Source: a virus
Reading direction: 5' to 3' (one strand)
DNA length: 64,000 nt
IMG/VR virus record: IMGVR_UViG_3300032524_000070
Below are positions 32,594-57,603 of this stretch, one piece after another (positions within the stretch are counted from its first letter, which is position 1; each line of letters begins with the position of its first letter). The notes below the pieces were generated by a model. The model was given only the letters and a program-made list of their open reading frames with translations, made no database searches and had not been told where the DNA came from. The position numbers and the translations under genes were made by a program.

Positions 32594-32625
32594 CGGTATC
32601 CAGCCTATGAGGCACGGAAGATGAG
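32594..32625 (+). promoter_or_regulatory. Putative late-promoter motif copy 3
   Basis: CGGT-ATCCA-GCCTATGaggcacggaaGATGAG. Confidence 0.6.
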
Positions 32626-32652
32626 CAACCGGCCTGACCCCGGGAGGAGCTG

Positions 32653-32853
32653 ATGCCCCAGTACAGCGAGCAGATGAAGCGACAGCGGCAACAGGTCAAG
32701 ATGGGCCTGGCGTTGCAGTACGCCGATGCTCCCCTTCGAGCAAAGAAGGGCACCTTCATCTTCGACATGAAGGACGCGGAGACGGGCGAGCAGCTCGCCT
32801 ACTTTGAGAAGGACACCGAGAACCAGTCCAAGGAGCACGTTCGGGATGCGTAA
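32653..32853 (+). pseudogene. Orphaned original 5' end of the 33526 tail/baseplate gene, interrupted by an endonuclease insertion
   Basis: Strong RBS (GGAGGAG). KGTFIFDMKDAETGEQLA matches KGEFFFKMTDARSGRVLA at the start of 33526 (10/18 identical). Similarity stops at about 32814 and the ORF runs into the endonuclease RBS/start. Confidence 0.7.
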
Positions 32854-34083: not shown

Positions 34084-35105
34084 TGCTGGCCCCCCACTCG
34101 CCACACCCCAACCCAGAGAGTAAGGTAGTTGACCAGAACTACTTGAAGGGGGTTGGTATGCCTGGTGTGGTCAAGTGCCGGGTCTGCGGCATCGAGCGAC
34201 GACGGCTGGGGGCTCACATCAAGGCGTCCCACGGGATGACAGTGCCCGAGTACCAGTTGCAGTTTCCCGATGCAGCCGTGGAGGTCATCGGTAGTCGTGT
34301 GCGGTCTGCGGAATGTCGGGCCAAGCAGGCGACGGCTGCCAAGCGGCGGTGGGCTGACCCAGATGAGCGGGCTGCACAATCGGCTCGACTCAAAGATGCG
34401 GCCCCGTGGAAGGGCAAGAATCTCTCAGAGAGCCACAAGGCGGCGATCTCGGTGGGTGGATCTGGTGTCGCACATGACCTCACGGACGAGCGGCGAGCAG
34501 AACTAGCCGCCCGAGGTCGGCGGCTTCTGGTCAACAGCCGACAGCACCCGGACTATCGGCAGAAGCTCTCCGAGGGGCAAAGGCGGCGGCATGAGCGGGA
34601 GATCTGCGGTCTTGCGGACCCTGCCAATCAGCGCAAGAGCTACAACACCAGACTCAAGAACGGCACGCTCATCCCTCCCGGTGGGGGTCGCGGTATCACG
34701 GGCTTCCGCAAGGGTCTGTCGCACTACTGCCGAAGCACACTGGAGGCGAACTTCGCCCGCATCCTCGTTCACGAGAGGGTGCCCTACGAGTATGAGCCGA
34801 GGGTATTCATGCTGCCTGGTGGGGGCCGGTGGACACCGGATTTCCGGCTGCTCGCACCTCTCGGGGGTATCCCTGCTGGCTGGGTGGAAATGAAGGGCTG
34901 GCGACAGAAGGATGGCACCTTGCCGGGTGAAGCCTCTGCCAAGATCGCCGCCTTTGAGCAGATGACGGGGGAGGCTGTGTACGTCCTGGTGCAGAGCAGC
35001 CCTGAGTGGAAGGCCCTCACTGCGAAGTACGCTGGGCTGGTTCCGTGGGAGAGGCCCCGTTTCAACCTCAAGACTCATCCGGCCCTGTTCGGGAGGAAAG
35101 CCTGA
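34083..35105 (+). mobile_element. Free-standing homing endonuclease: C2H2 (MucR/Ros-like) Zn finger + NUMOD3 + PD-(D/E)XK
   Basis: VKCRVCG...LGAHIKASHGMTVPEY (Zn finger); PWKGKNLSESHKAAIS (NUMOD3-like); RSTLEANFARIL...YEYEP...WTPDF...WVEMKGW (nuclease). Start is either 34083 (TGATG) or 34158. Confidence 0.8.
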
Positions 35106-38100: not shown

Positions 38101-38866
38101 GAACTACGGGGTCAACGGCGGCGGCTACCAGATTGCCTACTACTTCCGCTCCAACTCGCCGCAGACGGCGGGCACCAAGGAGGGCGACATCACCTCCACG
38201 GGCGACGGCACCTTGCCGACGACCTTGGTAGTGGAGCCTCTGCTCGCCAGCCCTAGCGTCTGGACCGGGCAGGTCGGGATGGGTGGTCACGAGCTGGCCT
38301 TCCCCTACGAGTCGCCTCTGGACCAGATCCCCATCAACGATGGGACGACGGTTCCGGCGGGCTCGCAGCAGATCAGCGGGACGACGGAGGAGTGGTACTT
38401 CGCAGCGACGGCAGAGGTCGCGCTCGACCACTTCGACGCGGATACCGGGTTGCTCAACCTGCACGCCTTCGTGCAGCAGGACATCCAGAACGACCAGGAG
38501 TTCGGCGGACCGGACAACGACAAGAAGCCCCGGAAGGATGCGGAGTTCAGGGCCTACTACCCGTTCGCGGATGACGAGTCCTACCGCCCCACCGTGTTCG
38601 CGCAGCCCTTGTTCGGGGCGACGCGGCACAAGTCGTTCACCCCGTTCCTGGCAAGGGCGACGGCTGACGTGCCCGGAGTCGCTGGTGGGCTCCTGTTCCG
38701 CAAGTCGGAGCTGCTGCTCATCGTCCTCTCGCGGTTCGCTGAGCTGGACGACGAGAACAACGTGCGGTTCATCGACCCGCAGAGCAGCAACAGGACGCTG
38801 GCGGCGGTCTACCGGACCCGCAACCTTCTTCTGACCGTGGGAGATCGCACATGCCTCGGAAGCTGA
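35105..38866 (+). CDS. Large virion protein (1253 aa), DUF4815-like N-terminus; paralog of 49804
   Basis: ATG at 35105 (TGATG overlap). GKPVLDAELNL, FLEVWR, HGNV, QLHYRIR, GAIDGFVFAIP and RPDG...ILDLRR are shared with 49804. Confidence 0.75.
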   Translation: MAVKDHTNHFDALESAPTPADLRVPNTVSRSPGTGERAFIGVVAESGKPVLDAELNLHQNAQWMEDYLLRRWQTPSGWLRGRTHLDAYCDWSLETAPAGVTDDSGLVDPGGSAGSAGSGGSGGSGGSAGGGGPLIADDGTLLDSVILPRLEATVAGHPVVVEYTNTKTPGYNLIGLTPAKIYDGTNATVKRTDMIFLEVWRSLVAPSPFATGQIQIVAFASLIAGDLVRINGIALTAVAGAPGLNQFQIGASNDITATNIATAINLVANSFDLIVTARPTTNVVLLTADLPGAGDVISQTGNFITLSVTVATVGAMVVSGATLVGGADRPNKPSSEQDKIYRHGNVLSPSPVWLDDEMVDPIIAVESSQRIQLHYRIRTTSDAEALNYKKHPDGFSNLIAGGGPNDAAIFAQGNRAVPVWAGNGVDTVSYPFVPADKTSTWLQSSAVSFGWEDDGLYVAGDGSATSAANLGAIDGFVFAIPIAFVHRHNNVSDMLAGFKGFDPESNANGAPMYAHTGYVGPLGNIPAGDSDRPDGEFANVITQQNILDLRRHVVFPGVDLAAELKYQVQSLMDGNLRTWSVDTASKQTLGGDSGDASTRYLICNEVGRTESEGATPPLAGENTERGELIRSYDHICRRFADQPIVERVVVAFWPGDRNGAPVAPGTDNPGKYISPKAGGGTMTALWYEGDTLNLDLEFLNSTTLGGMFDSRPGAGTGGGGSGTGIPDQNFLQFAPAGTVITDVLNAWHDDGHYDQVTNQNVQLGIIKGLGTTHLQVTIDANDTVTTEGQPIAGPNIEHKMVGSDVAGAPPVAPANFGSPRRIFLEVEITYPIGVGTTDTPDHEVIPDLGVYTDSVLTVTGPGPLIENDVLQRPADFENLLAARYRSGFREVQSEYVANDTINHAAPLAGTAIGVATVEQIVSLDRSTLRFPRRVWSNDNGTGLYVNDVPGAAVQTVDVPNSELGSSSRLIQLAGGGGIPLSGVGHTLCDIRYFAQDPIPNYGVNGGGYQIAYYFRSNSPQTAGTKEGDITSTGDGTLPTTLVVEPLLASPSVWTGQVGMGGHELAFPYESPLDQIPINDGTTVPAGSQQISGTTEEWYFAATAEVALDHFDADTGLLNLHAFVQQDIQNDQEFGGPDNDKKPRKDAEFRAYYPFADDESYRPTVFAQPLFGATRHKSFTPFLARATADVPGVAGGLLFRKSELLLIVLSRFAELDDENNVRFIDPQSSNRTLAAVYRTRNLLLTVGDRTCLGS
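35426..35500 (+). repeat. Gly/Ser low-complexity linker with (GGCTCTGGT)x3
   Basis: Encodes DPGGSAGSAGSGGSGGSGGSAGGGG. Confidence 0.8.
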
Positions 38867-45500: not shown

Positions 45501-48195
45501 CACCGACAACGACGTGCTCATGGCGTCGTACACGCACGCAGGCGGGAACATCCAGACGCTCATCGACCTCCGCGACCCGCTCGTGGACATCGACAAGCGG
45601 CTGGAAGTCACGGTCGGCAACCCTTCGGGGCATGGCCAGCCGGGAGACGCGCACTTCAACGAGCTGGCCGATGCCGTCGCGTTCGTGACGGAGACCTACC
45701 GGGCCTTCCAGGTCTCGGGCGCACCGGGCGAAGAGGGTCGGGCTCGCCGCATCAAGGTCATCGGGCCGACGCGGGAGGACAACGCCAAGCTCCCCATCTC
45801 GCCAGCCGGTCTCAGTGGGGTCATCATCGAGGGTGCCGCCCGGACGCCGGACGACACCGCCGCGAACCCCCTGTCGATCACCTGGGAGGGGGCAGCGGCT
45901 CCCCCGCTGTTCGACCTCTCGGATGTATCTGGCTGGACGTTCCGGGATCTGGCCTTCCGCTTCGTGGACTCGGCGGCTTCGGCGGTGGTGCCGGAACGCT
46001 GCCTGTTCATCACGAGGGATGGCCCGACTCGGAACTGCATCTTCGAGAACATCTACCTTCTCGGGAAGGCCCACGGCTTCTACTACATCGACGACACTGC
46101 CGTCCCTGGCAGTGCCGCCTACGACAACCTGCTGTTCCGCAACTGCGCTGCCACGGAGCTGACCGACTTCGCCATCCGGGTCGAGAACAACATCGACGCG
46201 GCCAACGCCGACGTGATGAAGGTCGAGGGCTGCGACTTCACGGTGGCCAAGGGAGCTGGCCGCGAGCTGAACGGGACGATCACCGATGGTGGCATCGTCC
46301 ACGTCGGGACGACCAACGCCGAGCGGACCAGCATCCGGGACAGCAGGCTCATTGGCGGCAACGTCGGCATGTTCTCTGCTGGTGTCGGCAACGTCATCGA
46401 CGGCTGCCTCATCCAGAACACCGACCTCCCGGCGATCTGGGCGAAGTCGGACTTCTGGGAGATCAACAACAACGACATCGTGGCCGCCCACACCGTCAAG
46501 GGCACGTCCGGGCCGTTGAACCCCGCCAAGGTGGCCCTCTACATCGACGCGGGTGGTGCTGGACAGAACGAAGTCCACGTCATCAACAACCGGGTCGATG
46601 TCAGCGGTGGTGCAGCGGGCGACCGGGCCATCTTCAGCGACGGCAACACCTTCAACTGCATCTTCTCCGGCAACAGCGTCGATTTCGACATCATGGCTGC
46701 GACGGCAGTTCACATCCTCGACAACGACATCGCGGTAGGCGATCTGTCGTTCGATGCCAGTTGCACCGTCCGGGGCAACGCCGTGGTCGGAGACATGATC
46801 CCCCTGGGGACCCTGGCCAACATCTCCAACAACAACGTGGCCGGTCTGCTGCTGGGCATCCTTGGGACGAACTGCCGCTACAGCAACAACAACTTCCTGA
46901 GCAGCACCGCCACCGACCATGTGGTCGCCAACGGGAGCAGCTTCAACGGCGACTGGTTCGGGGACCAGGCATCGGCTGGTGGTCGGGTCGAGCTGGCGAA
47001 CGACTGCACCTTCATCGGGTGCCGCTTCTCTGATGCCGTGGATGGTGTGACGAAGTTGCCTTCCCGGAACCGTTTCGAGGCGTGCGTGTTCGATATGTAC
47101 GCCACCGGCTTCCAGGTAAGGGGTGGCTCAAACTCCTTCCTTGGCAACGCCTTCAACGACCGGACGGCGGGTCCAGTCCTCAATCTTGAGATCAACATCA
47201 AGGGTGAGGGGACGGTCTTCTCGGACAACAAGTGCTCCATCGGCACCTTGTCGCTGGAGCCCGAAGCGGGTGAGAACCAGCGGTTCGTGGTGACCGGCAA
47301 CCAGTTCTTCGTCCCTGACATCAACGTGGGCGGCATGTGGATTCAGGGCGGCTACAGCGTGGTCAGCGACAACGTGGTGGTCGGCTGGGAGAGCGAGAGC
47401 GCCGACCCCGACAAGTTCTCCATCTTTGTCGAGGGGAACCAGAACGTCGTCAACGGCAATCTCTGTACCAAGAGCCTTCAGGTGAAGGGTGCCCAGTGTA
47501 CGGCGGTGGGGAACCGGGTCTTGATCAACGCCGTCGTCGCGTTGACCGATGGCAAGTTCGACTCGAACCACGTCCAGGGCGATGTGCTCATCGGTGGTGG
47601 GGCAGCGGCCAGCATCCAGTTCAACAGCAACCGGATCGCGGGCGACGTGGACTACCTGACGCCCGCGACCGACTCCCTGATCTCCAGTTCGTTCAACGAC
47701 AACCGCATCGTCGGTACGACCACCCTGGCCGTAGCGGCTGGTGTGTCCATCGTGGACAGCACGATCTCGGGCAACAGGTTCGGCAACGACTTCGCGGCCA
47801 CCCAGAGCGACGACTGCACCTTCGTAGGGAACCGCTGCACCGGCAGCGTGAATCTCACCAACTCGGTGGGGCTGGTCTGCAACAACAACCGCATCGGCAA
47901 GGGTGGGGCGACGAAGAACCTCATCCTCACCACCTGTGCCGACTACATCTGCAACGGCAACTACGTCGAGGGCAGCATCCTGGTGGACGCCAACACTAGC
48001 GGGACAGGCGTGGGCATCCTGGTCGGCAACCGAGCGGCGGTCATCTCGTCGGACAACGCTCCGCTCGCAGGTCAGGTTGCTGTCGGCAACCGGACGACCG
48101 TCAACGGGGTCACCCCGTCGCTCTTCAACACGAACACGGGCGTCGTCGCCGACATCGGCGTTACCGTGCCCTCGAACTTGAACACCGAGGTCTAG
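42595..48195 (+). CDS. Tailspike-like protein (1866 aa) with long C-terminal right-handed beta-helix
   Basis: The last ~800 aa are dense in I/V-x-G-N, NN and CTF.GNR repeats (pectin-lyase fold). They are preceded by the AHFNELADAVAF cap motif. Confidence 0.75.
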   Translation: MADYPLTKLEKALARRASSSASKPAWQELMERYDTVPSSKSVQAPDAITGFSGSWAASYDLGGSLRDMTVGESPAQIQRRTNLLGQPGMGEINFRPYDHGTNRHGKYGPSLLGHPISFQVVGPTAKTRGLVHQWFITEAGNVDTLNLDVGADINSKSITPSPLPAGADTIGEIYGFTAIPEGGLYIVVTMTGSEGVVTDNGAFAPGTDGGLGDGFIGEDDGGAPIGAGARLAVIPRTESVKYEIFRVTAMTPTTLVLDNAKRLSTYFDYNIGANAPVIRAITIIRPAATRLVAVPGSGSVQGGEQTFAFVPPVTALNADWQPVYASATGTGLFDPWTSAKNLDTNPAWGFAADAKDYGQAVVLPIPAPVNRGQGRLQGINGEAPQQLPLGRFRLILDAASYFGSTLDIGKIIRIYDIRRVLDGDWETIASAPATHRGRPLLDRMLGYFEIFNTGNADQGVGANNFYDLKFVSQVDPDTGVPFFGAGTNFVMATGSGAGQEVRFQWTVHEPISTLWTDRYLHPTRLDSARLKNLIDPRWVKPTLKGRELTDMAGHQAMPDRAIFDTSSSSAGVAGGNANPGNLLDLGFRVVLFPAKVIGAPTTSLVPDFDNPIDANEVVLDPTKLDENQFIEVDYSAGLVHLSHPPVVGSQLVPLAGILTADDNPRGEAVFFAACVPFSREPGQMGVNPRLTAGRSLDRAGSFCGLDSPEPVDVYGGRIFWPGDNQTINSGPQRTIQLNVELGPIDLPLTGFVDVLIGDHNPAGDPLFSNSDEERLCTFGYSTVNYNDVGHGGRTTLEGTFGGGDQTGPASYVVVPATTPVTVVLRKNIVLPNTLDGRTGTDYQFDTTYGYAKRPATLRFTHGDLTPEHDGSVSISTKDPRTDAHEALFSELFSSWCISGGINSTVLPSVGATLHFSEAVVLIQGIRTVMPEQDLVLGVVAGPPASRYVYIDGSTPACPVWASTTVLPLPTDNDVLMASYTHAGGNIQTLIDLRDPLVDIDKRLEVTVGNPSGHGQPGDAHFNELADAVAFVTETYRAFQVSGAPGEEGRARRIKVIGPTREDNAKLPISPAGLSGVIIEGAARTPDDTAANPLSITWEGAAAPPLFDLSDVSGWTFRDLAFRFVDSAASAVVPERCLFITRDGPTRNCIFENIYLLGKAHGFYYIDDTAVPGSAAYDNLLFRNCAATELTDFAIRVENNIDAANADVMKVEGCDFTVAKGAGRELNGTITDGGIVHVGTTNAERTSIRDSRLIGGNVGMFSAGVGNVIDGCLIQNTDLPAIWAKSDFWEINNNDIVAAHTVKGTSGPLNPAKVALYIDAGGAGQNEVHVINNRVDVSGGAAGDRAIFSDGNTFNCIFSGNSVDFDIMAATAVHILDNDIAVGDLSFDASCTVRGNAVVGDMIPLGTLANISNNNVAGLLLGILGTNCRYSNNNFLSSTATDHVVANGSSFNGDWFGDQASAGGRVELANDCTFIGCRFSDAVDGVTKLPSRNRFEACVFDMYATGFQVRGGSNSFLGNAFNDRTAGPVLNLEINIKGEGTVFSDNKCSIGTLSLEPEAGENQRFVVTGNQFFVPDINVGGMWIQGGYSVVSDNVVVGWESESADPDKFSIFVEGNQNVVNGNLCTKSLQVKGAQCTAVGNRVLINAVVALTDGKFDSNHVQGDVLIGGGAAASIQFNSNRIAGDVDYLTPATDSLISSSFNDNRIVGTTTLAVAAGVSIVDSTISGNRFGNDFAATQSDDCTFVGNRCTGSVNLTNSVGLVCNNNRIGKGGATKNLILTTCADYICNGNYVEGSILVDANTSGTGVGILVGNRAAVISSDNAPLAGQVAVGNRTTVNGVTPSLFNTNTGVVADIGVTVPSNLNTEV

Positions 48196-48199
48196 CCAG

Positions 48200-49033
48200 A
48201 TGAGAATCCTCGTTGACCTGCGAAGCCACCTGTCGGATGCACCGGAGATCATCCAGGTGCAGCGGGTTCCCGTGGAAGGCTCCGCTGGTGGCGAGACCAT
48301 CAACGGGAAGTACGCCCTCCCGGTCCCGTTGAACATGGAGTTCCCCATCGACGGGACGAACTACATCCTCGACGGGGCGGGGAACATCGACGGCGGCGAC
48401 GTGGTGAGCATGGGCTACGCCCACCTCCTGGCTCTCTACCTGCCCTTCGAGAACATCTACTTCAACCCGCTGCTGACCAGCGACCATGTAGGCGAGCTGG
48501 TCCTCGACCAGTCCTTCCACTTCACCGACCGCAGCGTCTCGCCCCCCGTCCAGTTCTTCCCCCGGTTCCAGACGGGCCGCGAGGAGGGCGTCGCCGACGA
48601 CGGTCAGATGCCCACGCACACGGCGATGATGCCCGCGAACGACACGGTGACCCCGGAGCGGCCAGGGCTCATCATCACGGAGCCCATTGACATCGGGCCG
48701 TTCACGCTCGACTGCGACGACGTGCCAGTGGGTGCCGACGAGTTCATGGTCTTCTGGAAGCTCTACAACTTCACGGTCGGCCAGGATGTCGCGGCTGATG
48801 CAGGACTGCTGGCGGGCACGAACGCCCCGGCGGCACGGCTGCTGGAGGAGACGCCCCAGGAGCCGGACGACCTCTCGGTCTTCATCAGCACCGACAATGG
48901 CGCGAACTGGTGTCAAGTCGGCCTGTTGGAGCCCATCGCCTTCTGCGACAAGACGACATCGGTGCGACTGGCGTTCATGAACGACTCGCTCACGAACAAG
49001 CTCTTCCTCGCCAGCTTCGCGCTGCTGTTCTGA
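48200..49033 (+). CDS. Acidic virion-associated hypothetical protein (277 aa)
   Basis: High GC3 ORF in the structural cluster; VFISTDNGANW (Asp-box-like) near the C-terminus. Confidence 0.65.
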   Translation: MRILVDLRSHLSDAPEIIQVQRVPVEGSAGGETINGKYALPVPLNMEFPIDGTNYILDGAGNIDGGDVVSMGYAHLLALYLPFENIYFNPLLTSDHVGELVLDQSFHFTDRSVSPPVQFFPRFQTGREEGVADDGQMPTHTAMMPANDTVTPERPGLIITEPIDIGPFTLDCDDVPVGADEFMVFWKLYNFTVGQDVAADAGLLAGTNAPAARLLEETPQEPDDLSVFISTDNGANWCQVGLLEPIAFCDKTTSVRLAFMNDSLTNKLFLASFALLF

Positions 49034-49043
49034 AGGTAGGAAA

Positions 49044-49814
49044 ATGGCACTCGACCACGGACAACTACGCCGCATCTCCGCCGCCGCTGACAAGCGGCGG
49101 TCGGTGGAGCGTCGTGCCGCCGTGGGTCGGATGAAGGAGAAGCCCTGTGCAGACTGCGAGACGGCCTATCCTTTCTTCGTCATGGACTTCGACCACCGGG
49201 ACCCGAGCACCAAGGATTTCACCATCAGCAGGGTGGTGACCCGGCTGGCATGGGACAAGCTCGTGGCCGAGATCGAGAAGTGCGATGTCGTATGCGTCAA
49301 CTGCCACCGTTTGCGAACGTGGGCACCGCCCACGAACCGGTCGGCCCGGCAGCGACTTCTGATTGACCTCAAGGCGACCCCCTGTGCGGATTGCAAGGGG
49401 GAGTTCCACTACTGCCAGATGGACTTCGACCACGTTCGGGGTGAAAAGCTCGGTCAGGTGCCCAAGAGGGGCACCGCACAGGCCATCAAGGCTGAGGCCG
49501 CCAAGTGCGATGTGGTCTGCGCGAATTGCCATCGAGTGCGTTCACAGGCCGCCGCCAAGGGGTCTGCCCGGTTGGTTCCTGCGGACATCGACATGGTGTG
49601 GAAGCAGCGCAGTAGCAAGACTCCGCAGACGAAGCTGCGGAAGACCACACGGCCTTGGCACAGCCTCGCCGGAATGATGCCGGATGGTGCTCTTGCAGCC
49701 CGCCACGGGATCACCCGGAACGCCATCAGGAACTACCGGAAAAAGATGAAGATCGAACCGTTCACACGCCAGGGCGTGCGACCCGATCTCAAGGAGGTGC
49801 GCTGTGGCGCTTGA
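49044..49814 (+). mobile_element. Tandem double-HNH endonuclease with C-terminal HTH, fused to the captured start of the downstream gene
   Basis: Two copies of PCADC...MDFDH...KCDVVC.NCHR.R, then a C-terminal DGALAARHGITRNAIRNYRKK (HTH). Begins MALDHG like 49804. Confidence 0.85.
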
Positions 49815-52800
49815 TCATGGAACTGGCGTCTCTCGGACCTTGAGCCCTCTCGACAGGGCTTACGCTTCGGTCATCTGGCAGAAGGGCAAGCCGCCCCTCG
49901 ACGCAGAGCTGAACCTCATGTCCTCGCTGGACCAGGAGCGGCTGCGGGAGTACGTCGCGGGCCTGATGCCCTCCGGGTTCTTGATGGACCCGACCCGCTC
50001 CGAGTTCGACTTCCGGTTCGACCCCAAGTGGGTCAACCACTTCCACCTCGGCGTGCCTCGGTCTGCCACGGGCAGCCTCGACGCAGACGAGACGCAGCCG
50101 GTCGTGTGGGCCAACGTCAACGGCTGGATGGTCCCGGTCGCTGGAACGGACATCACGGGCACGGCTGATGTCCACAACGTCGTCAAGCTCTACCCCGCCC
50201 CCGGCTCCGATACCCGCGTGGACTTCGTGTTCCTGGAGGTCTGGAACTCCCTGGTCCAGCCGAATCCCTCGACGCTGAACAAGCCCACGGCTTCGACCGT
50301 CTGGAAGTACGGCAACGTCAAGCACGGCGGCACGAACATCACGGACGACCTCGAAGATCCGACCATCGGCTTCGAGACCAGCAAGCGAGTACAGGTCCAG
50401 TACCGCATCCGCGTCTACGGACAGGGCCTCGGCGGTGGGGCCAGCGTGAACCTCGCTGTCCACCCGGACGGCTTCGGTGACCCGAACATCCTCGGTCGGG
50501 GGGCCAACGCGAGTGCCCCCGTCGCCGGGATGCAGTGGGCCAACATGCGAGAGCAGCTCGGTGACCCCTCCCTGTGGCGAGCAGGCGACGGCGACCCGAA
50601 CAACGCTCTGGGCACCATCGACGGCTACACCTACGCCATCCCGATCTGCGCGGTCTTCCGCCGGAGCCGGGAGACCTACGTCGCCATCAAGACCAGCGGC
50701 AACCCCACGCAGAACGGGGCGACCCTCCGCACGCCGGGCGTCTACCTGCTGGTCGATCCCCTGACGGGTGCCGTGCCCCTGCTCCAGGCGTCGCTCGGGG
50801 CGGCTCTGGGGCCGGACGACGGCAAGCTGGCCCCCTTCACCATCGCGGTCACGAACATCAACGGCTCCGGGCTGGAAGACACGGCCCACACGCTGTCGAG
50901 CATCTACCTCCAGATCGAGGATGAGATCGTCGGCATCTCGGCGGTGGACCTGGTGGGCAACACCATCACCATCCCGGCAGGTGGCCGTGGGCGGTGGGGT
51001 ACGGCTGCTGTGGGGCACGCGACGGCGACCCCCATCAACCAGTTCAACACCCGCCCGGACGGCCTGTACGCCGACCAGGTGGCCTCTCAGGACGTGCTGG
51101 ACCTCCGCAGGGCGGTGAACCCGGGCGACTGGGACTACAACCGTCTGCTGGCCCACAACGTCGCAGCTCTGGCCAAGGGCACCCTCCGTACCGCGTGGAA
51201 GGAGAGCAACCCCGGTGACACAGAGGGTCCGGTCGTCCATGAAGTCGTGGACATGTACGCCGGGGACGAGACGCACCCGAACCACACCGACGCGGCGGAC
51301 GGCTCTGATGGCATCCGCACGGTCTGGTCGGATGGGGCGACCATCCAGTCGGACGTGACGCTCCTCCTCAAGCACGACGCCACCCGCGACGCGGACGGCA
51401 TGGTCGGCTTCACGAACACCGGCTTCGATGCCCTGGTCGAGTGGGATGTGGGGGCGAGCTTCAACCCCATCGGTTTCTTGAACACGGGCGGCCTGGCGAC
51501 GGGCTGGTACAACGGCTCGTCGGTCCACCTGTTCATCGGCGGGACCACGGGCGAGCTGGGTGCAAGGGCGACCTTCCGTGCCGCCAACGTGCGGGACGTG
51601 CGCTTCGTCACACCGGGCGAATACTGGAAGACGGGTTACCCGGTCGTGGACCCGACCACGGGCAACCAGCACCCGGTATCCCTCCGGTTCCTGGGCGAGA
51701 AGAGCACGGTGGCACCGCCGTCTGCTCTGGCCGCAGCCGACAAGCTCATCGCCCCCGGCCCGCAGTACCCGTGGCGGGAGGGGTCGTTCGAGCGACCCTT
51801 CATCGTGCTGGGTGGCCTGCTCCACAGCAACCTGCGGATCACTGCTCTCGATGTCAGCAACCTGACTTCGGCGGTCGATGTCTACGGCACGACCCGCTAC
51901 TACCTCGACCTGACGGGCAAGGGCTTCGACTTCGACGCGGCTGGTGGGTTCAACAACGCCAGCGGTGGCGTCTTCCCGAACGACCCCGCGCAGGTGGCGA
52001 CTCCGTTCCTGCGGGGTGAGCGCACCTTCTTCGGGATGCTGACCGACGACGGTCGGGACCAGACGGGGGCCTCCTCTGAGGTCTACCTGATGACCTTCGG
52101 TGACCCCACGGGCCGCAACAACAACGGTGCCTTCCGGGTCATCGGTGCCGGGACGGTGGGCTACACCAACGTCCCTGGCATCAACGCCGGGACGCTGGTG
52201 CTGGAGCCGCTTTCGGGGGACTTCACCGGCTGGTCGGCCACGGGCTCGGGCAACGAGATCACGGTCGATTTCCGGTCGCAGTACCACAACGCGGACGACA
52301 TCTCGACCTACGCAGCTCGCATCGCCGACCTGGCCATCGTGCTGACCGACATCGGTGGCGAGTCTGGTGACGGAACGCCGTGGGACCTGGCGAACGTCGG
52401 GACCAACGCTCTGGATCAGGCGGGCGGCTTCTACTACGCCCCGAGCAAGATGGTCCTCTCGACCACGCTGCTCTACCACCCCGGTCGGTCAGCGGCGACG
52501 CGAGTGCCGGACGAGTTCGTGCGGTTCGCCATGCGGGGCGGTTCGGAAGAAACGCTCGGGACGTACCTGCGACGGTCGCCGTCGAGCATCGACACGACCT
52601 TCTCGGCCATCGGGACGGCAACAGACGAGACGTACTGGCCGACCATCCACGTCGGCACGTGGAACAGGCTCTCCGGCCTCGGCTGGCACGCCCCCCTCGC
52701 ACCGGCCTACGGCGGCTCCGTGGTGGGCTTCACAGAGCAGGACCGCGAAGCTGAGTGCTTCGTGGACCGTGGCAGCAAGACGGCCATCTTCCGTCCGTTC

Positions 52801-55800
52801 CGCAACCGGGACATGACGCTCCAGGCGTTGACCTGGCCGGACCCGGAGATCCCCGCAGGGAGCTGCCTGCTCGGCCCGTACCTGTACCCGGCCCCCGACT
52901 CGTCGGAGAAGGATGCTCTCCAGATCCTCACCGGCAACAACGGAGCCCCGCACGGCACGACGGGCAAGCGGATGGGCTTCATGGTCCCCCGCGAGTTCAT
53001 GCCGCGCTTCGGGCGGCAGGACATCCCGTACCGCCAGCTCAACACGGGCACGGCCCCCACGGCTGCCGGGTTCATGCCGGGCATCAACCACCTGTTCACC
53101 GATGTCACCGACCTGACCAACCCGGTGTTCAACATCATCGGTGGCGAGCGGAACGCCGGAGGTGCGGAGGTCAACTCCCTGTTCATGGTGACGCGAGCCA
53201 GCGAGATCGTGTACGCCCACGGCAACAGCAGCTACGGCCCGAAGAACATCGGTGCCTACGGTGCTCGCAAGACGACCGACATCAACCCGGCTCTCGGGCC
53301 GAACTCCGCTGCCGTCGTCGCTGCGCTGCGGGCGGTCAACTCGTCGGACCTGGGCCGGGGGCTCAAGGGCATCCAGCTCCCGCCCTACATGGGCATCGCC
53401 CGGCTGTACGGCGTCTACGAGCTGGCGGACTACACGGCCAAGGGTGGCACGGCCTTCAAGGTCAACCGCTACGAGATGGAAGCGGCTCCGGTGTCGATCA
53501 ACCTCATCCGCGAGGATGCCGACCAGCAGACGCTCTTCATCCTCCAGGACGGTGCTCTGGACCTCACGGGTGCAGCGGGTGACCACACCTACATCATCCC
53601 GTCGAACGTGCTCGACCTGGCTCGCATCCCGACCTTCGTGGCCGGGGACGCTTTCGAGGACTACGACTACGTGGTCGAGGCGACGGTCTTCTTCTTCGCT
53701 CGGGGCTTCATCAACGAGAACAACGTGGTCCTCGTGCGGAAGCGGGACGGCTCCTACGCCCTCAACACCGATGGGGACGATGCGGAGCTGGAGAACGTGC
53801 CGATGTGCATCCCGTCTCCGGCGGGCATCAACGACCGGCTCTACAACGCCTACAACCGCACCGTCTACCAGGGTGACCCCTACATGACGCGGGACGGCTC
53901 GACCCGGCAGGAGGCCGACTACGAGAACCGCTACGGGCGGCTCACCCCCGGCCAGGCGTGGCTCCTCCGCACGGCAGTCCAGCAGTTCGACTCGGCGGGC
54001 AACTTCGTCCCGCAGATGGACAACGAGCGTGGCTTCGAGGTGCTCGCCTCGATGGACTTCTACACGACGCTCGGCACGGGCAAGGTCGGCGGGATGCTGT
54101 TCCCCGGCACCCCGCTCGACGTGGGGCACATCTCCGACACGCTGCTGGCCTCCAGCCGGATGCCGCTGACGGAGACGGCCAACGACTGGCGGATCGACGT
54201 GCGGGCCTTCACCGAAGGCCAGAAGATGAACCCCAGCCGGGCAGCGGCGTCGGTGGAGGTGTTGAGCAACCTCTCGATGCTCAACGCGGTCACCAACGAC
54301 GACACCTTCTTCGTGCGGTTCATCCTGCTCGACGACAGCGTGGTGACCCTCTACGGCTCGACGGCGGCCTTCGTCGCCACCCTGACGGGTGGCCCGAACA
54401 ACGTCCCGGCGGGCGACATCTTCGTCCTGGACGAGACGAGCAGCCACCGGGAGCTGACGGACCAGTTCAGCCCCATCGGGGTCCTCAACGACGGGACTCT
54501 CTCGTCGGCGACGGTCGCCCTGGTGGGTGCCAAGGTCGGTGACGCGGTGACGGTCAACCCGGACGCGATGGTGAACGGGGCCTTGATCTACGGCTTCGTC
54601 CCGGCTGCCGACCAGGTCACCATCGTCGTCCAGAACATCAACCCGGACATCCCGTTCACCTCCCTGAGTGATCACGACAGCATCAAGCCGATCACCGTCA
54701 CGGCGGCTGACCTCGGTGGTGTTGCAGTCCCGGCAAACGACAGCACGGCAACCGCCGAGGCATTCGTCGGGGCGGCAGTCGGGGATGCCGTGGTCGTGAA
54801 CCCCCCGGCGGGTCTGGCAGCGGGTCTGATCGTCACGGCAGACACGGTGACGGTGGCCGACCAGGTGACCCTCCGCGTCCACAACGTCACGGCGGCTCCC
54901 ATCGCGTGGGGTGCTGACCGGGTGCTCGACGTGGCCGTGCTGAAGGACCATCCCCAGGGCTCCATCGACATGAGCCTCGTCAACTTCGACGTGCGGGTCA
55001 GCCAGACGGTGGGGACGGAAGACGGGACCGCTGACAACCTCGTGGCCGTCATCAACGCCAACACCAAGCTGTTCCGCTCGGTCACGGCCTTCAACGACGG
55101 AACCCCCAAGGTCCAGATCGCAGCGGTCCCGACCGGAGCCGAGGGCAACGGCATCCGGGTCCAGGTCGGCAAGGTGTCCTGGGGTGCCACGGTCGGAACG
55201 GCACCACTGCTGGTGCAGCAGACCCTCCAGATCGCTGTCCCGCACGACAACATGGTGGTCACCCCCCACGTCACCTCCAGTTTCTTGCTGGGTGGCCTCG
55301 ACGTGCCGGTGAACGCGGGCATCGGGACGAGCCAGATGGCTCTGACCGGCATGACGGAGCGGCTGCCTCTCGGGGTGCTCGTCCAGGACAGCGACTTCCT
55401 GTGCGAGAATCCCCTCGGTGACGCGGCTTCGGCCATGAACTCCAGCCCGGCTCCGCTGCGGCCCATCCAGACGCTCATGCCGCTCATCGGCGGCGAGGAG
55501 TACAGCCGATTCATGGGTGCTCCCGGAGAGCTGCTGGCCCTGGCCGACGTGCAGATCGCCCCGAACTCCTGGGCGGCCTGGACCGACACGGCACCGGACG
55601 GTGCGACCCGGAAGTTCCGCATCTACCGGGGCGGTGGTGCTGCCTACGTGCTCTCCGGGGACAACCCCGGCGGCCCCATCGACTGGGTGAGCGAGAGCTT
55701 CCCGAAGTCGGCACAGCCGGTGCTCAAGGGCGGCGTGCTGGCCTGCAAGGCGATGCTCGTCCGCAACTACTACGAGGAGGCGTTCGCTGGTGGGAGCCTC

Positions 55801-56052
55801 GCAGCCCCGAGCCAGGGCGACGAGATCCAGATGGTCATCCTGACCCACGCCCACCTCGGCGATGGGCTGACGGTGCTCAACGGTGTGACCCTCGACGGCA
55901 TCATCTCCCCCAGCGGGTACGGCGAGGGCTACTCGGCAGCCGACCGCTACCGCTGCATGGGGCGGCCGATGTTCCGTGGGTACAGTCGCGTGATCCCCGA
56001 TCCGGTCACCGTCACGCTGGCGGTGTACCCGGAGAACCAGCGGGGAACCTGA
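49804..56052 (+). CDS. Large virion protein (2082 aa), DUF4815-like N-terminus; paralog of 35105
   Basis: GTG start with AAGGAGG RBS inside the HNH 3' end. GKPPLDAELNL, FLEVWN, YGNV, QVQYRIR, GTIDGYTYAIP and RPDG...VLDLRR. Confidence 0.8.
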   Translation: MALDHGTGVSRTLSPLDRAYASVIWQKGKPPLDAELNLMSSLDQERLREYVAGLMPSGFLMDPTRSEFDFRFDPKWVNHFHLGVPRSATGSLDADETQPVVWANVNGWMVPVAGTDITGTADVHNVVKLYPAPGSDTRVDFVFLEVWNSLVQPNPSTLNKPTASTVWKYGNVKHGGTNITDDLEDPTIGFETSKRVQVQYRIRVYGQGLGGGASVNLAVHPDGFGDPNILGRGANASAPVAGMQWANMREQLGDPSLWRAGDGDPNNALGTIDGYTYAIPICAVFRRSRETYVAIKTSGNPTQNGATLRTPGVYLLVDPLTGAVPLLQASLGAALGPDDGKLAPFTIAVTNINGSGLEDTAHTLSSIYLQIEDEIVGISAVDLVGNTITIPAGGRGRWGTAAVGHATATPINQFNTRPDGLYADQVASQDVLDLRRAVNPGDWDYNRLLAHNVAALAKGTLRTAWKESNPGDTEGPVVHEVVDMYAGDETHPNHTDAADGSDGIRTVWSDGATIQSDVTLLLKHDATRDADGMVGFTNTGFDALVEWDVGASFNPIGFLNTGGLATGWYNGSSVHLFIGGTTGELGARATFRAANVRDVRFVTPGEYWKTGYPVVDPTTGNQHPVSLRFLGEKSTVAPPSALAAADKLIAPGPQYPWREGSFERPFIVLGGLLHSNLRITALDVSNLTSAVDVYGTTRYYLDLTGKGFDFDAAGGFNNASGGVFPNDPAQVATPFLRGERTFFGMLTDDGRDQTGASSEVYLMTFGDPTGRNNNGAFRVIGAGTVGYTNVPGINAGTLVLEPLSGDFTGWSATGSGNEITVDFRSQYHNADDISTYAARIADLAIVLTDIGGESGDGTPWDLANVGTNALDQAGGFYYAPSKMVLSTTLLYHPGRSAATRVPDEFVRFAMRGGSEETLGTYLRRSPSSIDTTFSAIGTATDETYWPTIHVGTWNRLSGLGWHAPLAPAYGGSVVGFTEQDREAECFVDRGSKTAIFRPFRNRDMTLQALTWPDPEIPAGSCLLGPYLYPAPDSSEKDALQILTGNNGAPHGTTGKRMGFMVPREFMPRFGRQDIPYRQLNTGTAPTAAGFMPGINHLFTDVTDLTNPVFNIIGGERNAGGAEVNSLFMVTRASEIVYAHGNSSYGPKNIGAYGARKTTDINPALGPNSAAVVAALRAVNSSDLGRGLKGIQLPPYMGIARLYGVYELADYTAKGGTAFKVNRYEMEAAPVSINLIREDADQQTLFILQDGALDLTGAAGDHTYIIPSNVLDLARIPTFVAGDAFEDYDYVVEATVFFFARGFINENNVVLVRKRDGSYALNTDGDDAELENVPMCIPSPAGINDRLYNAYNRTVYQGDPYMTRDGSTRQEADYENRYGRLTPGQAWLLRTAVQQFDSAGNFVPQMDNERGFEVLASMDFYTTLGTGKVGGMLFPGTPLDVGHISDTLLASSRMPLTETANDWRIDVRAFTEGQKMNPSRAAASVEVLSNLSMLNAVTNDDTFFVRFILLDDSVVTLYGSTAAFVATLTGGPNNVPAGDIFVLDETSSHRELTDQFSPIGVLNDGTLSSATVALVGAKVGDAVTVNPDAMVNGALIYGFVPAADQVTIVVQNINPDIPFTSLSDHDSIKPITVTAADLGGVAVPANDSTATAEAFVGAAVGDAVVVNPPAGLAAGLIVTADTVTVADQVTLRVHNVTAAPIAWGADRVLDVAVLKDHPQGSIDMSLVNFDVRVSQTVGTEDGTADNLVAVINANTKLFRSVTAFNDGTPKVQIAAVPTGAEGNGIRVQVGKVSWGATVGTAPLLVQQTLQIAVPHDNMVVTPHVTSSFLLGGLDVPVNAGIGTSQMALTGMTERLPLGVLVQDSDFLCENPLGDAASAMNSSPAPLRPIQTLMPLIGGEEYSRFMGAPGELLALADVQIAPNSWAAWTDTAPDGATRKFRIYRGGGAAYVLSGDNPGGPIDWVSESFPKSAQPVLKGGVLACKAMLVRNYYEEAFAGGSLAAPSQGDEIQMVILTHAHLGDGLTVLNGVTLDGIISPSGYGEGYSAADRYRCMGRPMFRGYSRVIPDPVTVTLAVYPENQRGT

Positions 56053-56058
56053 TAGCCC

Positions 56059-56397
56059 ATGCCCTTCCTGAACCGACGAGACATCGCCCTCAAGACGAGG
56101 ACGCAGGCTGAGAAGGACTACCGGATGCAGCTCCGGTCGGCCCTCTCAACCCCTGGCCTGCCTGCTTCACAGCGGGCAGAGATCAACCGTCGCTTGAAGA
56201 ATGTGGGCCAGCCCCGCGTGTACGACGCCGACTCACCACCCCCTCCCGGGGCCATCGAGTTCACTACCCCGGAGGTCGCCACGGAAGCGTCCCTGAAGGG
56301 TCTGACGAAAGCAGCTCTGGTTGCGCTAGCTGGAGGGCGGGGACTCCCCACCTCCGGTACAAAGGCCATCCTGGTCGAGCGTTTGCTGGGTCGCTGA
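56059..56397 (+). CDS. Small basic protein with C-terminal SAP/HeH-like nucleic-acid-binding motif
   Basis: LKGLTKAALVALAGGRGLPTSGTKAILVERL matches the SAP consensus. Confidence 0.7.
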   Translation: MPFLNRRDIALKTRTQAEKDYRMQLRSALSTPGLPASQRAEINRRLKNVGQPRVYDADSPPPPGAIEFTTPEVATEASLKGLTKAALVALAGGRGLPTSGTKAILVERLLGR

Positions 56398-56412
56398 ACC
56401 AAGGAGGCAGCC

Positions 56413-56934
56413 ATGCGCTACCTGACACTGATCGTGCTTGCTCTGTCGCTGACCATCGCGGTCCCCGTGTTCGCCCTCGTCGATCTCGGCGGGGAAGTCG
56501 AGGCCGGAGACGATGACTCGTCCATCCCGGAGGCCCCGGAAGCTCCCGAGGCCGATGAGGTTGCCCCGGACGACGATGACTCGGCAGTCGTCACCCTCCC
56601 GGACACCGACGAAGAGGCCATGCTGCTCATCAGCAAGCTGCTCGACGCGGCCAACAACGGTCACTGGACCGTGTTCGCGGGTCTCCTGATCCTGCTCCTG
56701 GTCTTCGGCATGAACCGCCTGGGCCTCGCAGCCAAGATCGGCGGCAAGTGGGTTCCTTGGGTCACACTCGGGACGGGTGCTGCTGTCGCCATCGCCATCG
56801 GCCTGGCCACGGGTGCTCCGGTAGGCGAGTCCATCGTCGCCGGGCTCCTCGAAGGCACCGTCGCCATCGCTCTGTGGGAGCTGCTCGCCAAGCACGTCAC
56901 GGCGAAGAAGGCGGACGGCACCGCTCGCACCTAG
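56413..56934 (+). CDS. Membrane protein, holin-like (signal-peptide-like N-terminus, acidic linker, ~3 TM helices)
   Basis: AAGGAGG RBS. Hydrophobic N-terminal segment, D/E/P-rich linker, three hydrophobic stretches and a basic C-terminus. Confidence 0.6.
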   Translation: MRYLTLIVLALSLTIAVPVFALVDLGGEVEAGDDDSSIPEAPEAPEADEVAPDDDDSAVVTLPDTDEEAMLLISKLLDAANNGHWTVFAGLLILLLVFGMNRLGLAAKIGGKWVPWVTLGTGAAVAIAIGLATGAPVGESIVAGLLEGTVAIALWELLAKHVTAKKADGTART

Positions 56935-56953
56935 TTCCCTGGGGGTCCACTCG

Positions 56954-57603
56954 ATGTTGGACAGGCTGGCAACGGCTCCGGCCCTCACTGTCATCGAGTG
57001 GGCCTTTCAGACCTACGGCGATCAGCTCGCCGTGTCCACGGCGTTCGGTCCATCAGGGATCGTCCTGCTGGACATCATCAGCAAGGTCCAGCCCGGAGCA
57101 GCCGTTTTCTTTGTGGACACGGGGTTCCACTTCCCCGAAACGCTGACCCTGCTCGACCGAGCCCGCAGTCACTTCGACCTCGACCTTCAGGTGGTTCACC
57201 CGGCGGTCGAGGTCGCTGCTGATCTGAACGTCCTGTTTCCTGACCGTTGCTGTGCTCTTCGGAAGGTGGCCGCGACGTGGGCTGCCCTCGCAGGCAAGCC
57301 CGCATGGATGACGGCTCTTCGCCGTGACCAGGGCCGACTCGTGCTGACATCAAGGTGGTCGAGCCCCAGGTCGTGAACAACGCCGGGGTGGTCAAGATCA
57401 GCCCCATGGCGTCATGGACTCGTGAGGAGGTGTGGCAGTACATCAGGGCGAGCAACTTGCCCTACAACGAGCTGCACGACCGGGGCTACCCCTCGGTCGG
57501 TTGTGCTCCCTGTACGTCTCCTGTTGCCAGCACGGCAGCAGAGCGGTCAGGACGGTGGGCTGGCTGCGGCAAGAGCGAGTGCGGGATGCACACGGGCAGC
57601 TAG
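56954..57603 (+). pseudogene. cysH: APS/PAPS reductase (CysH family), split by an apparent 1-nt deletion at ~57333-57335
   Basis: STAFG, FVDTGFHFPET, CCALRKV and W.TALRRDQ are in one frame. KISPMASWT.EEVW.YI, PYNELHDRGYPSVGCAPCT, ERSGRW and KSECGMH are in the other. Adding one C gives ...RRDQGPTRADIKVVE.... Confidence 0.85.

What the first reader, a model, noticed from the sequence alone, without database searches (positions are those of the whole stretch)
49034..49870. HNH gene begins with the same MALDHG start as the 2082-aa gene, whose own start is synonymously recoded
The HNH ORF begins ATG GCA CTC GAC CAC GGA (MALDHG, 49044-49061). The downstream gene begins GTG GCG CTT GAT CAT GGA (MALDHG, 49804-49821): same peptide, with changes only in the start codon and synonymous positions. 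In the downstream copy 9 of the first 22 codons end in A/T, unlike the rest of the gene, and CTT GAT creates the HNH stop (TGA 49812-49814). A new AAGGAGG RBS sits inside the HNH 3' end. Inference: insertion after codon 6, capture of the native RBS/start, and regeneration of the host N-terminus.
Basis: partly seen in the sequence, partly recalled or inferred. Interest (0 to 1): 0.88.

Follow-up and report, generated by a model that had tools for sequence, protein, structure and literature searches.

The report
Homing endonuclease hijacks a gene's start
A selfish nuclease gene sits just after the sixth codon of a giant phage tail-module gene, uses that gene's own start signals for itself, and carries a differently spelled replacement start so the interrupted gene can still be made. 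This is a front-end, phage version of the "gene-end swapping" known from fungal mitochondria.

Summary
The HNH ORF (49044-49814) and the 2082-aa gene (49804-56052) both begin M/V-ALDHG, and the two 18-nt copies differ at 5 positions that leave the peptide unchanged.

An HNH-free relative, L001 (about 95% nt identity), carries the upstream spelling directly after the 48200 gene. The window therefore has a 760-nt insertion (49062-49821) between codons 6 and 7.

This layout is not a one-off:
- At least seven diverged phage lineages carry this tandem-HNH gene at the same junction.
- In each, its N-terminus copies the first 5-12 residues of the downstream gene, intact in some lineages and decayed in others.
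- Its 3' end supplies a Shine-Dalgarno sequence and start codon for that gene.
- Outgroup homologues at the same site keep their own zinc-ribbon N-terminus and start. Start capture is therefore derived.
- The "recoded" spelling (GCG CTT GA) already overlaps the HNH stop codon in an outgroup. It travels with the element and was not newly made in this genome.

The HNH gene is under purifying selection, and its tree disagrees with the host gene's tree. Two other nucleases in this window are also absent from L001's contig and also sit next to recoded gene ends.

Verdict: a real, new variant of intronless homing. Cleavage and immunity to self-cleavage are inferred only. The same scan also noted this stretch in another reading of this genome.

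The parts
48200..49033 (+). Gene A (277 aa). It is the conserved upstream neighbour and provides the left homology flank.
   Evidence: ORF. Homologues end directly before the big gene in HNH-free relatives.
49033..49043 (+). Native intergenic leader with a purine-rich Shine-Dalgarno-like AAGGTAGG. It now drives the HNH gene.
   Evidence: The 66 nt upstream of the start are identical to HNH-free L001.
49044..49061 (+). Upstream copy: the native ATG and codons 1-6 of the big gene, now the first six codons of the HNH ORF.
   Evidence: 18 of 18 nt match the L001 start. HNH-family homology begins only after residue 6 (alignment).
49062..49821 (+). 760-nt insertion relative to the empty site in L001. 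The boundary can slide within the imperfect 18-nt repeat.
   Evidence: Window compared with L001.
49044..49814 (+). Tandem-HNH homing endonuclease ORF (256 aa, P0001).
   Evidence: PHROGs HNH families, E = 4e-44. 2727 homologues. dN/dS 0.11-0.14.
49140..49319 (+). HNH domain 1 (residues 33-92): CxxC, DFDH, C...CxxCH.
   Evidence: Invariant C35, C38, D48, D50, H51, C80, C84, C87, H88 in 17 homologues. pLDDT above 90.
49377..49544 (+). HNH domain 2 (residues 112-167): CxxC, DFDH, C...ANCH.
   Evidence: Invariant C114, C117, D127, D129, H130, C155, C159, N161, C162, H163. Weak structural hits to HNH nucleases.
49644..49763 (+). C-terminal PWH...helix-turn-helix module, the presumed DNA-binding domain.
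   Evidence: Invariant W205, G210, D214, R232. Two helices, H214-221 and H225-235. Structural hits to HTH proteins at Z = 3.8. Similar module in LAGLIDADG genes at the same site in L012.
49791..49797 (+). Element-borne Shine-Dalgarno AAGGAGG for the big gene, encoded inside the HNH C-terminus (the conserved E-V dipeptide).
   Evidence: GAGGT is conserved 6-7 nt before the host start in all occupied loci.
49804..49821 (+). Downstream copy: an element-borne GTG start and codons 2-6 of the big gene, spelled differently from the native copy.
   Evidence: 17 of 18 nt match the corresponding copy in L019 although the two HNH proteins are only 77% identical.
49812..49814 (+). HNH stop codon TGA, lying across codons 3 and 4 of the big gene.
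49804..56052 (+). Gene B (2082 aa), a giant gene of the tail/baseplate module and the host/target gene.
   Evidence: ORF. Baseplate PHROGs hits on neighbouring genes. 17 viral-contig homologues.

Best explanation
This is a free-standing tandem-HNH homing endonuclease gene (HEG) living at the 5' end of a giant tail-module gene (gene B) in an uncultured freshwater phage.

Shown by comparison:
- Relative to the empty site in a near-identical relative, a 760-nt element lies between codons 6 and 7 of gene B.
- The element has no start of its own. The nuclease is read from gene B's native leader, ATG and first six codons.
- The last 31 nt of the element carry a strong Shine-Dalgarno sequence, a GTG and five codons that re-encode the same peptide. 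Gene B therefore restarts intact.
- The nuclease stop codon lies 8 nt inside gene B, in the +1 frame.

Inferred:
- The nuclease cuts the uninterrupted junction in nuclease-free phages during co-infection. Repair from the occupied genome then copies the element in (intronless homing).
- The different spelling of the element-borne start keeps the occupied genome from re-creating the target site. It also leaves too little homology for the two copies to recombine the element out.
- The overlapping stop and start couple gene B translation to nuclease translation.

Origin (inferred):
- An ancestral HEG sat between gene A and gene B with its own zinc-ribbon N-terminus, and already overlapped gene B's start.
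- In one lineage, a broken gene-B 5' end was joined in frame to an internal point of the nuclease gene. This deleted about 55 N-terminal residues and captured the host start.
For: Empty site:
- HNH-free L001 has the upstream spelling directly after gene A and is identical to the window for the 84 nt up to the junction.
- The 6 differences from L001 lie within the first 21 nt of gene B. No longer diverged tract follows.

Nuclease identity and state:
- PHROGs HNH hits cover both halves of the protein.
- Both CxxC/DFDH/CxxCH motifs are invariant in 17 homologues.
- dN/dS is 0.14 and 0.11 against the two nearest homologues.

Same layout elsewhere:
- L019, L021/22, L026, L023-25, L027/28 and L029/30 all show gene A, then the HNH gene, then gene B.
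- In each, the HNH N-terminus copies that phage's own gene-B N-terminus. Examples are MALDHG, MALDYGTG and MGLDFG. It is decayed in L025, L026 and L029.
- These HNH genes form one clade with 100/99 support.

Ancestral state:
- Outgroup HNH genes at the same junction (L038/39, L040/41) have their own start and a zinc-ribbon domain.
- L039 overlaps gene B with ATG GCG CTT GAT.

Mobility:
- The HNH tree and the gene-B tree disagree. AU tests gave p = 0.002 in each direction, with groups chosen after seeing the trees.
- HNH dS between the window and L022 is 2.3, against 0.63 for gene B.

Not a splicing element, and co-transcribed:
- Rfam found no intron.
- No terminator or promoter was found between the genes.

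Same theme elsewhere in this phage:
- Two other nuclease genes (32816-33532 and 34023-35103) are absent from L001's contig.
- They are flanked by a diverged duplicate of a gene's 5' end, and by a gene's 3' end with 27 of 78 nt changed.
Against: - No cleavage, homing or protein N-terminus has been observed.
- The polarity (gain in the window lineage or loss in L001) cannot be decided. There is no donor-like co-conversion tract in gene A. The nearest known HNH is only 77% identical.
- Much of the different spelling is forced by the overlapping HNH codons, its stop and the Shine-Dalgarno sequence. It predates start capture. It therefore need not have been selected for immunity.
- Two of its variants (GAT, ACT) also occur in HNH-free L002.
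- The length of the copied N-terminus varies (5-12 residues) among lineages. One founding fusion is therefore not certain.
- The tree tests used groups named after seeing the trees. Phage mosaicism in gene B could also cause the disagreement.
Confidence: 0.78

Rival explanations
1. Target-site duplication followed by divergence. The insertion event itself duplicated about 18-36 nt of gene B's 5' end. The two initially identical copies then drifted, or were selected apart, within this lineage.
For: The two copies flank the insert like a direct repeat. In L022 the repeat appears to extend to about 12 codons.
Against: - The flanks differ from L001 by only about 5%, yet the downstream copy differs at 5 of 18 positions (6 of the first 21 nt) while the upstream copy differs at 0 of 18.
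- The downstream spelling matches L019's in 17 of 18 nt. It is already present (GCG CTT GAT) in outgroup L039, whose HNH gene has its own start and no upstream copy.
Confidence: 0.1
2. A domesticated, vertically inherited nuclease. The HNH protein is a fixed accessory of the tail module or of DNA processing. It is no longer mobile and has simply been lost in some lineages.
For: - Purifying selection.
- The whole family is tied to one locus across very diverged phages, including contigs of about 528 kb.
- No empty-site contig was found in the samples that hold the window.
Against: - It is absent from the closest relative and from 8 other distinct relatives, with a clean, functional junction.
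- The HNH and gene-B trees disagree.
- The same junction is occupied by unrelated LAGLIDADG genes (L004, L012) and by another HNH type (L013). That pattern is expected of a homing hotspot.
Confidence: 0.1
3. The different spelling serves translation only. The A/T-ending codons and the GTG merely keep the new initiation region unstructured and fit the overlapping HNH reading frame. They have no role in immunity to cleavage.
For: - Four of the changed bases lie in the overlap with the HNH codons and stop.
- All three initiation regions fold more weakly than shuffled controls, with z = +1.3 to +2.2.
- Native starts also have extra A/T-ending codons.
Against: - The changes at codons 5 and 7 (CAT, ACT) lie outside the overlap.
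- The second and third nucleases of this phage sit beside far denser recoding, 27 of 78 nt, which is not at a start codon.
- This rival concerns only why the spelling differs. It leaves the insertion and start capture untouched.
Confidence: 0.25
4. A splicing element. The 760 nt are removed as an intron, or the protein is an intein. Gene B would then be made from the native ATG, and the downstream copy would be irrelevant.
For: The insertion lies inside a coding sequence.
Against: - No Rfam family matched at E up to 1.
- The upstream exon would end in A, not the U usual for group I introns (own knowledge).
- The insert length is not a multiple of three, and the HNH frame ends in a stop. An intein is therefore excluded.
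- A conserved Shine-Dalgarno sequence plus a start codon at the right-hand end would be pointless for a spliced element.
Confidence: 0.02

Closest known systems
[quoted passage not shown]
   Same: - The nuclease gene lies outside any intron or intein, next to a conserved gene.
- It is present in some phages and absent from close relatives.
- Spread would be by double-strand-break repair with co-conversion of flanking host sequence.
- The ORFs overlap, suggesting translational coupling.
   Different: - According to the review, T4 examples lie between genes, or split a gene into two polypeptides. They cut hundreds to thousands of bp from their own insertion point.
- Here the nuclease is fused in frame to the target gene's first six codons and uses its start signals.
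- The element itself carries the replacement start for the target gene.
- I found no such case in that review.
Mobile endonuclease ORFs of fungal mitochondria that bring a foreign gene end (Allomyces macrogynus atp6; Glomus atp6, atp9, cox2, nad3; PMC3630166)
   Same: - The endonuclease ORF is inserted at a gene terminus.
- A duplicated gene end lies on each side of it.
- The native copy matches the endonuclease-free relative, while the element-borne copy is diverged yet encodes a similar peptide.
- This is exactly the pattern seen between the window and L001.
   Different: - Those elements replace the 3' end, and the native end is left behind as an unused remnant.
- They use LAGLIDADG or GIY-YIG enzymes and live in mitochondria.
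- Here the 5' end is replaced, and the native copy is reused as the nuclease's own translation start.
- The enzyme here is a tandem HNH and the host is a phage.
Genes split by endonuclease insertion (mobE in nrdA of Aeromonas phage Aeh1; mobA in T4 gene 60/39; PMC2988022)
   Same: A nuclease gene lies inside a coding sequence, new start and stop signals have been created, and host function is retained.
   Different: Those cases yield two host polypeptides that must reassemble. Here the host protein is complete, because its first six residues are encoded twice.
Out-of-frame hidden HNH insertion in an actinophage methylase gene (ShiLan element; PMC11855218)
   Same: An HNH homing element lies inside a phage coding sequence, in a different frame from the host gene, with a GTG start involved and no splicing signals.
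   Different: The ShiLan element is read through in frame as part of the host protein, and the HNH is hidden in another frame. Here the host gene is interrupted and restarted, and the HNH borrows the host start.
Synthetic home-and-rescue gene drives with a recoded rescue copy (review PMC8996256)
   Same: In design logic, the nuclease element sits in a needed gene. It carries a synonymously re-spelled copy of the disrupted part, which restores function and avoids recognition and partial homing.
   Different: Those drives are engineered, RNA-guided, and used in animals. The resemblance is in how the system works, not in ancestry.

Membership tests
HNH (beta-beta-alpha-metal) endonucleases | Significant match to HNH family profiles | tested here: met
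   phrog_3106 at E = 3.9e-44 and phrog_2255 at E = 1.1e-40, two stretches each. Pfam-A gave no hit at E up to 0.01.
HNH (beta-beta-alpha-metal) endonucleases | Catalytic His, a structural Asn, a metal-binding His and flanking Cys pairs are conserved | tested here: met
   DFDH and CxxCH with CxxC pairs are invariant in both repeats across 17 homologues. The Asn is invariant only in repeat 2 (N161) and varies in repeat 1.
HNH (beta-beta-alpha-metal) endonucleases | HNH fold | tested here: inconclusive
   The model has pLDDT 83.5. HNH nucleases (T4 endonuclease VII, Cap5, GVE2 HNH, Cas9 HNH) recur among the hits, but only at Foldseek E of 0.24 or worse and at Z of 3.6 or less.
HNH (beta-beta-alpha-metal) endonucleases | Metal-dependent DNA cleavage | not testable with these tools
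   Needs purified protein.
Free-standing homing endonuclease (intronless homing) | Present or absent at the same site among close relatives, with an intact empty site | tested here: met
   Window compared with L001, plus eight further distinct empty sites.
Free-standing homing endonuclease (intronless homing) | Not inside an intron or intein | tested here: met
   No Rfam match. The ORF has its own stop, a frame offset of +1, and a separate restart of the host gene.
Free-standing homing endonuclease (intronless homing) | An evolutionary history separate from that of the host gene | tested here: met
   Reciprocal AU tests gave p = 0.002, with groups chosen after seeing the trees. dS is 2.3 against 0.63 for the window-L022 pair.
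Free-standing homing endonuclease (intronless homing) | Cuts the nuclease-free allele and is inherited preferentially in mixed infection | not testable with these tools
   The phage is uncultured. Only contigs of the occupied allele were seen in public runs.
Mitochondrial-type mobile endonuclease ORF with gene-end replacement | Duplicated gene end on both sides of the nuclease ORF, with the native copy matching the empty-site relative and the element-borne copy diverged | tested here: met
   The upstream copy matches L001 at 18 of 18 nt and the downstream copy at 13 of 18. Definition taken from PMC3630166.
Mitochondrial-type mobile endonuclease ORF with gene-end replacement | Replaces the 3' end of the host gene and leaves the native end unused | tested here: not met
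   Here the 5' end is replaced and the native copy serves as the nuclease start. This element works like that class but is not a member of it.

The most novel reading that the evidence does not exclude
Phage homing endonucleases have a general, so far undescribed strategy of replacing gene ends. The element lands in the first or last codons of an indispensable virion gene and carries a re-spelled copy of that gene end. The re-spelled copy is presumed resistant to cleavage. In the 5' version, the element also takes over the host gene's translation signals for its own expression. This would be a natural counterpart of recoded-rescue gene drives. In this one phage, three unrelated nucleases show the pattern. 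For the HNH lineage, the position of the fusion (codons 6-12) would mark where the double-strand break is made.
Probability: 0.4. Interest if true: 0.72.

Novelty: new variant of a known kind. Interest (0 to 1): 0.56.

Why it matters
- It shows how a selfish nuclease can live inside an indispensable structural gene without an intron or intein. It borrows the gene's start for itself and supplies a replacement start.
- It explains a class of confusing gene calls in phage genomes, namely adjacent genes that share the same first residues.
- It gives a sequence signature for finding homing sites: a native-spelled stub together with a differently spelled functional copy.
- The comparison of occupied and empty alleles defines a candidate target to within about 40 bp. 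That target could be tested directly with a new tandem-HNH enzyme.
- It is a natural example of the recoded-rescue design used in engineered gene drives.

Tried and rejected
- **Whole genome:** none is held for this window.
- **blastn of 48000-51000 against GenBank phages:** no match.
- **Genome-contig scan with the gene-B N-terminus:** no relative found.
- **Viral-contig scan with the HNH protein:** one weak, unrelated locus, L018.
- **Pfam on the four proteins:** nothing.
- **PDB sequence search:** nothing.
- **Foldseek and VIA-align on the HNH model:** only weak rows, so the fold is not settled.
- **Rfam:** no family.
- **Public runs:**
  - No RNA holder is listed.
  - Freshwater and viral-metagenome contigs hold the occupied allele.
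  - No contig joins across the insert, so polymorphism within one sample could not be shown.
- **Degenerate DNA pattern for the gene-B start in metagenome and viral collections:** this returned only L001's and L002's contigs plus four chance hits in unrelated genes.
- **Left-flank comparison for a donor-like co-conversion tract:** none was seen. There is only one 57-nt patch (48788-48844) where the window resembles L002 more than L001.
- **RNA folding of the three initiation regions:** this does not discriminate between the explanations.
- **Promoter and terminator scan:** nothing found.
- **Atlas search for gene B:** only a sub-threshold lead to DUF4815 (score 0.85).
- **P0009 (begins MAKDFGTG):** no DNA could be fetched.
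Full report
**1. The observation**

- The 256-aa ORF 49044-49814 starts with ATG GCA CTC GAC CAC GGA.
- The 2082-aa ORF 49804-56052 starts with GTG GCG CTT GAT CAT GGA, in the +1 frame relative to the first ORF.
- The first ORF's TGA stop lies at 49812-49814, inside CTT GAT.
- AAGGAGG lies at 49791-49797, six bases before the GTG.

The match is not chance.
- ALDHG occurs nowhere else in the six-frame translation of the window.
- From the local amino-acid composition, its probability at one fixed position is 7.5e-7.
- The two 18-nt copies differ at five positions and the peptide is unchanged.

**2. What the genes are**

- The window is part of a phage virion module. All large genes are on the + strand, and PHROGs finds baseplate families on 16868-18043 and 18040-21528.
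- No whole genome is held for the window.
- Seventeen IMG/VR contigs of 27-437 kb encode relatives of the big gene.
- Public runs that hold this stretch are freshwater and viral metagenomes.
- The 256-aa protein matches PHROGs HNH endonuclease families twice over, at E = 4e-44.
- In an alignment of 17 homologues, both CxxC...DFDH...CxxCH motifs are invariant.
- A C-terminal PWH...two-helix module is also conserved.
- Pfam, the PDB sequence search and the structure searches were negative or weak. I therefore rest the HNH call on the profile hits and the conserved motifs.

**3. The empty site**

L001 is 98% identical in protein over the first 500 residues of the big gene and about 95% identical in DNA. 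It has no nuclease gene.
- The homologue of gene A (48200-49033) ends, the same 10-nt leader follows, and the big gene then starts with exactly the window's upstream spelling and continues ACC GGC GTC.
- The window and L001 are identical over the last 66 nt before the start and over all 18 nt of the upstream copy.
- The downstream copy plus the next codon carry 6 differences in 21 nt. The background is about 5.5%, giving P = 7e-4.
- Beyond that point, divergence returns to background.

The window therefore carries a 760-nt insertion (49062-49821) between codons 6 and 7.

**4. The layout is shared by a whole nuclease lineage**

The closest homologues of the nuclease (77-52% identity) all lie between a gene-A homologue and a gene-B homologue.
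- In each, the nuclease starts with a copy of that phage's own gene-B N-terminus. The copy is MALDHG in L019, MALDYGTG followed by a few more similar residues in L022, and MGLDFG in L027.
- In L025, L026 and L029 the copy is recognisable but decayed.
- In each, gene B restarts from a start codon preceded by GAGGT, encoded by the nuclease's conserved C-terminal Glu-Val. The start is GTG in the four closest lineages. The nuclease stop falls a few bases inside gene B.
- These eight nucleases form one clade with 100/99 support.

**5. The ancestral state**

The next-closest homologues carry an extra N-terminal zinc-ribbon of about 55 residues. Three were looked up.
- Two of them (P0017 in L038/39 and P0029 in L040/41) also lie at the gene A / gene B junction. 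They have their own Shine-Dalgarno sequence and ATG, and a small extra ORF upstream.
- The third, P0023 (L042), shows no recognisable gene A or gene B beside it.
- In L039 the nuclease ends ...EVHYGA-stop, overlapping a gene-B start spelled ATG GCG CTT GAT.

Two conclusions follow.
- The hexapeptide is not an ancestral feature of the nuclease family. It was taken from gene B.
- The GCG CTT GA spelling is old and travels with the nuclease. It is held in place by the overlapping nuclease codons and stop.

The most economical origin is as follows. The broken 5' end of gene B was joined in frame to an internal point of an intergenic nuclease gene. The right side of the break was repaired by homology. 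That would place the break near codons 6-12. This step is inference. The variable length of the copied peptide (5-12 residues) leaves open whether there was one founding event or several.

**6. Is the element alive and mobile?**

- The nuclease is under purifying selection. dN/dS is 0.14 against L019 and 0.11 against L022.
- Its tree conflicts with that of gene B:
  - The nucleases of the window and L019 are sisters (100/98).
  - Gene B places the window with L001-L003 and L022, to the exclusion of L019 (100/99).
  - Each data set rejects the other's grouping (p-AU 0.002). I chose the groups after seeing the trees.
- Synonymous divergence between the window and L022 is 2.3 for the nuclease but 0.63 for gene B.
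- The same junction holds LAGLIDADG genes in L004 and L012 and a different HNH type in L013. The L012 LAGLIDADG gene shares the C-terminal PWH module with the window's nuclease.
- No intron signature, terminator or promoter lies in the region.

All of this fits a homing hotspot. None of it shows cleavage. I could not decide whether the window lineage gained the element or L001 lost it. No donor-like tract is visible in gene A. No empty-site contig was present in the runs that hold the window.

**7. Why the spelling differs**

Three non-exclusive reasons are possible:
- the overlap with the nuclease codons, its stop and the Shine-Dalgarno sequence (shown);
- avoidance of re-creating the target site at the right-hand junction (inferred);
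- avoidance of recombination between the repeats and of short-circuit repair (inferred).

The A/T-ending codons are only partly special. L001's native start already has 5 of 22 against the window's 9 of 22. Folding of the initiation regions does not discriminate between the reasons.

Support for a role in immunity comes from elsewhere in the same phage.
- The nuclease genes at 32816-33532 and 34023-35103 are both missing from L001's contig.
- The first is flanked by the native 5' stub of the interrupted gene and a strongly diverged replacement of about 25 codons.
- The second follows a gene whose last 20 or so codons differ from the native ones at 27 of 78 nt with only three amino-acid changes.

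**8. Comparison with what is known**

- The mechanism class is intronless homing as in T-even phages (PMC2988022). That review describes intergenic or gene-splitting insertions, not start capture.
- The nearest structural precedent is the mobile endonuclease ORFs of fungal mitochondria. They bring a foreign 3' gene end and leave the native end, identical to that of the ORF-free relative, downstream (PMC3630166). The present case is the mirror image at the 5' end. It has one added feature: the native remnant is reused as the nuclease's translation start.
- A hidden out-of-frame HNH in an actinophage methylase gene is another unorthodox phage arrangement, but it works differently (PMC11855218).
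- The logic parallels engineered home-and-rescue drives with recoded rescue sequences (PMC8996256).

**9. Verdict**

- I rate this a new variant of a known kind, of moderate to good interest.
- Nuclease activity, target position, immunity and translational coupling remain to be tested.

Noticed in passing
window 32620-33700; L043 (contig of L001): A second nuclease gene (about 32816-33532) is absent from L001's contig. The interrupted gene keeps its native start and about 54 codons as a stub upstream. It restarts downstream with a strongly diverged replacement of about 25 codons, then rejoins the native sequence at the VITLDAG motif. About 79 nt of L001's contig align to both sides of the insert.
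   Followed up: partly
window 34006-35105; L043: A third nuclease gene (34065-35105, with weak PHROGs endonuclease/resolvase hits) is also absent from L001's contig. The last 20 or so codons of the preceding gene differ from the native ones at 27 of 78 nt, with only three amino-acid changes. This is a 3'-end replacement like the fungal mitochondrial cases.
   Followed up: partly
window 35106-38866 and 49804-50400: The 1286-aa ORF (35006-38866) is a paralogue of the N-terminal domain of the 2082-aa gene (30% identity, E = 9e-8). Its likely start is the ATG at about 35106. The two share a 32-nt stretch with 30 of 32 identical bases (35243-35274 and 49885-49916). It also has a nuclease gene directly upstream.
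   Followed up: partly
L004 5217-6011; L012 4985-6001; L013 5259-5999: The same gene A / gene B junction holds LAGLIDADG endonuclease genes in two relatives and a different HNH type in a third. L012 carries two tandem copies of the PWH...helix-turn-helix module also found at the C-terminus of the window's HNH protein. This suggests that nuclease domains have been shuffled onto a shared DNA-binding module.
   Followed up: partly
window 46844-48243 and 54204-55203: Against a background of about 5% divergence from L001, two regions are almost unalignable (40-100% mismatches per 200 nt). One is the C-terminal part of the 1866-aa beta-helix protein and the other is a 1-kb block inside the 2082-aa gene. 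They look like swapped cassettes, possibly receptor-binding parts.
   Followed up: no
window 48788-48844: A short patch in gene A where the window is 60% identical to L001 but 81% identical to L002. This is a small mosaic or gene-conversion tract about 200 nt upstream of the nuclease.
   Followed up: no
L038 863-1063; L040 2716-2991: In phages with the ancestral, intergenic form of the HNH gene, a small ORF of unknown function (66 or 91 aa) lies between gene A and the nuclease gene.
   Followed up: no
window 56059-57376: Just downstream of the big gene lie a small SAP-domain protein (56059-56397) and a PAPS-reductase-domain ORF (56954-57376), according to Pfam.
   Followed up: no
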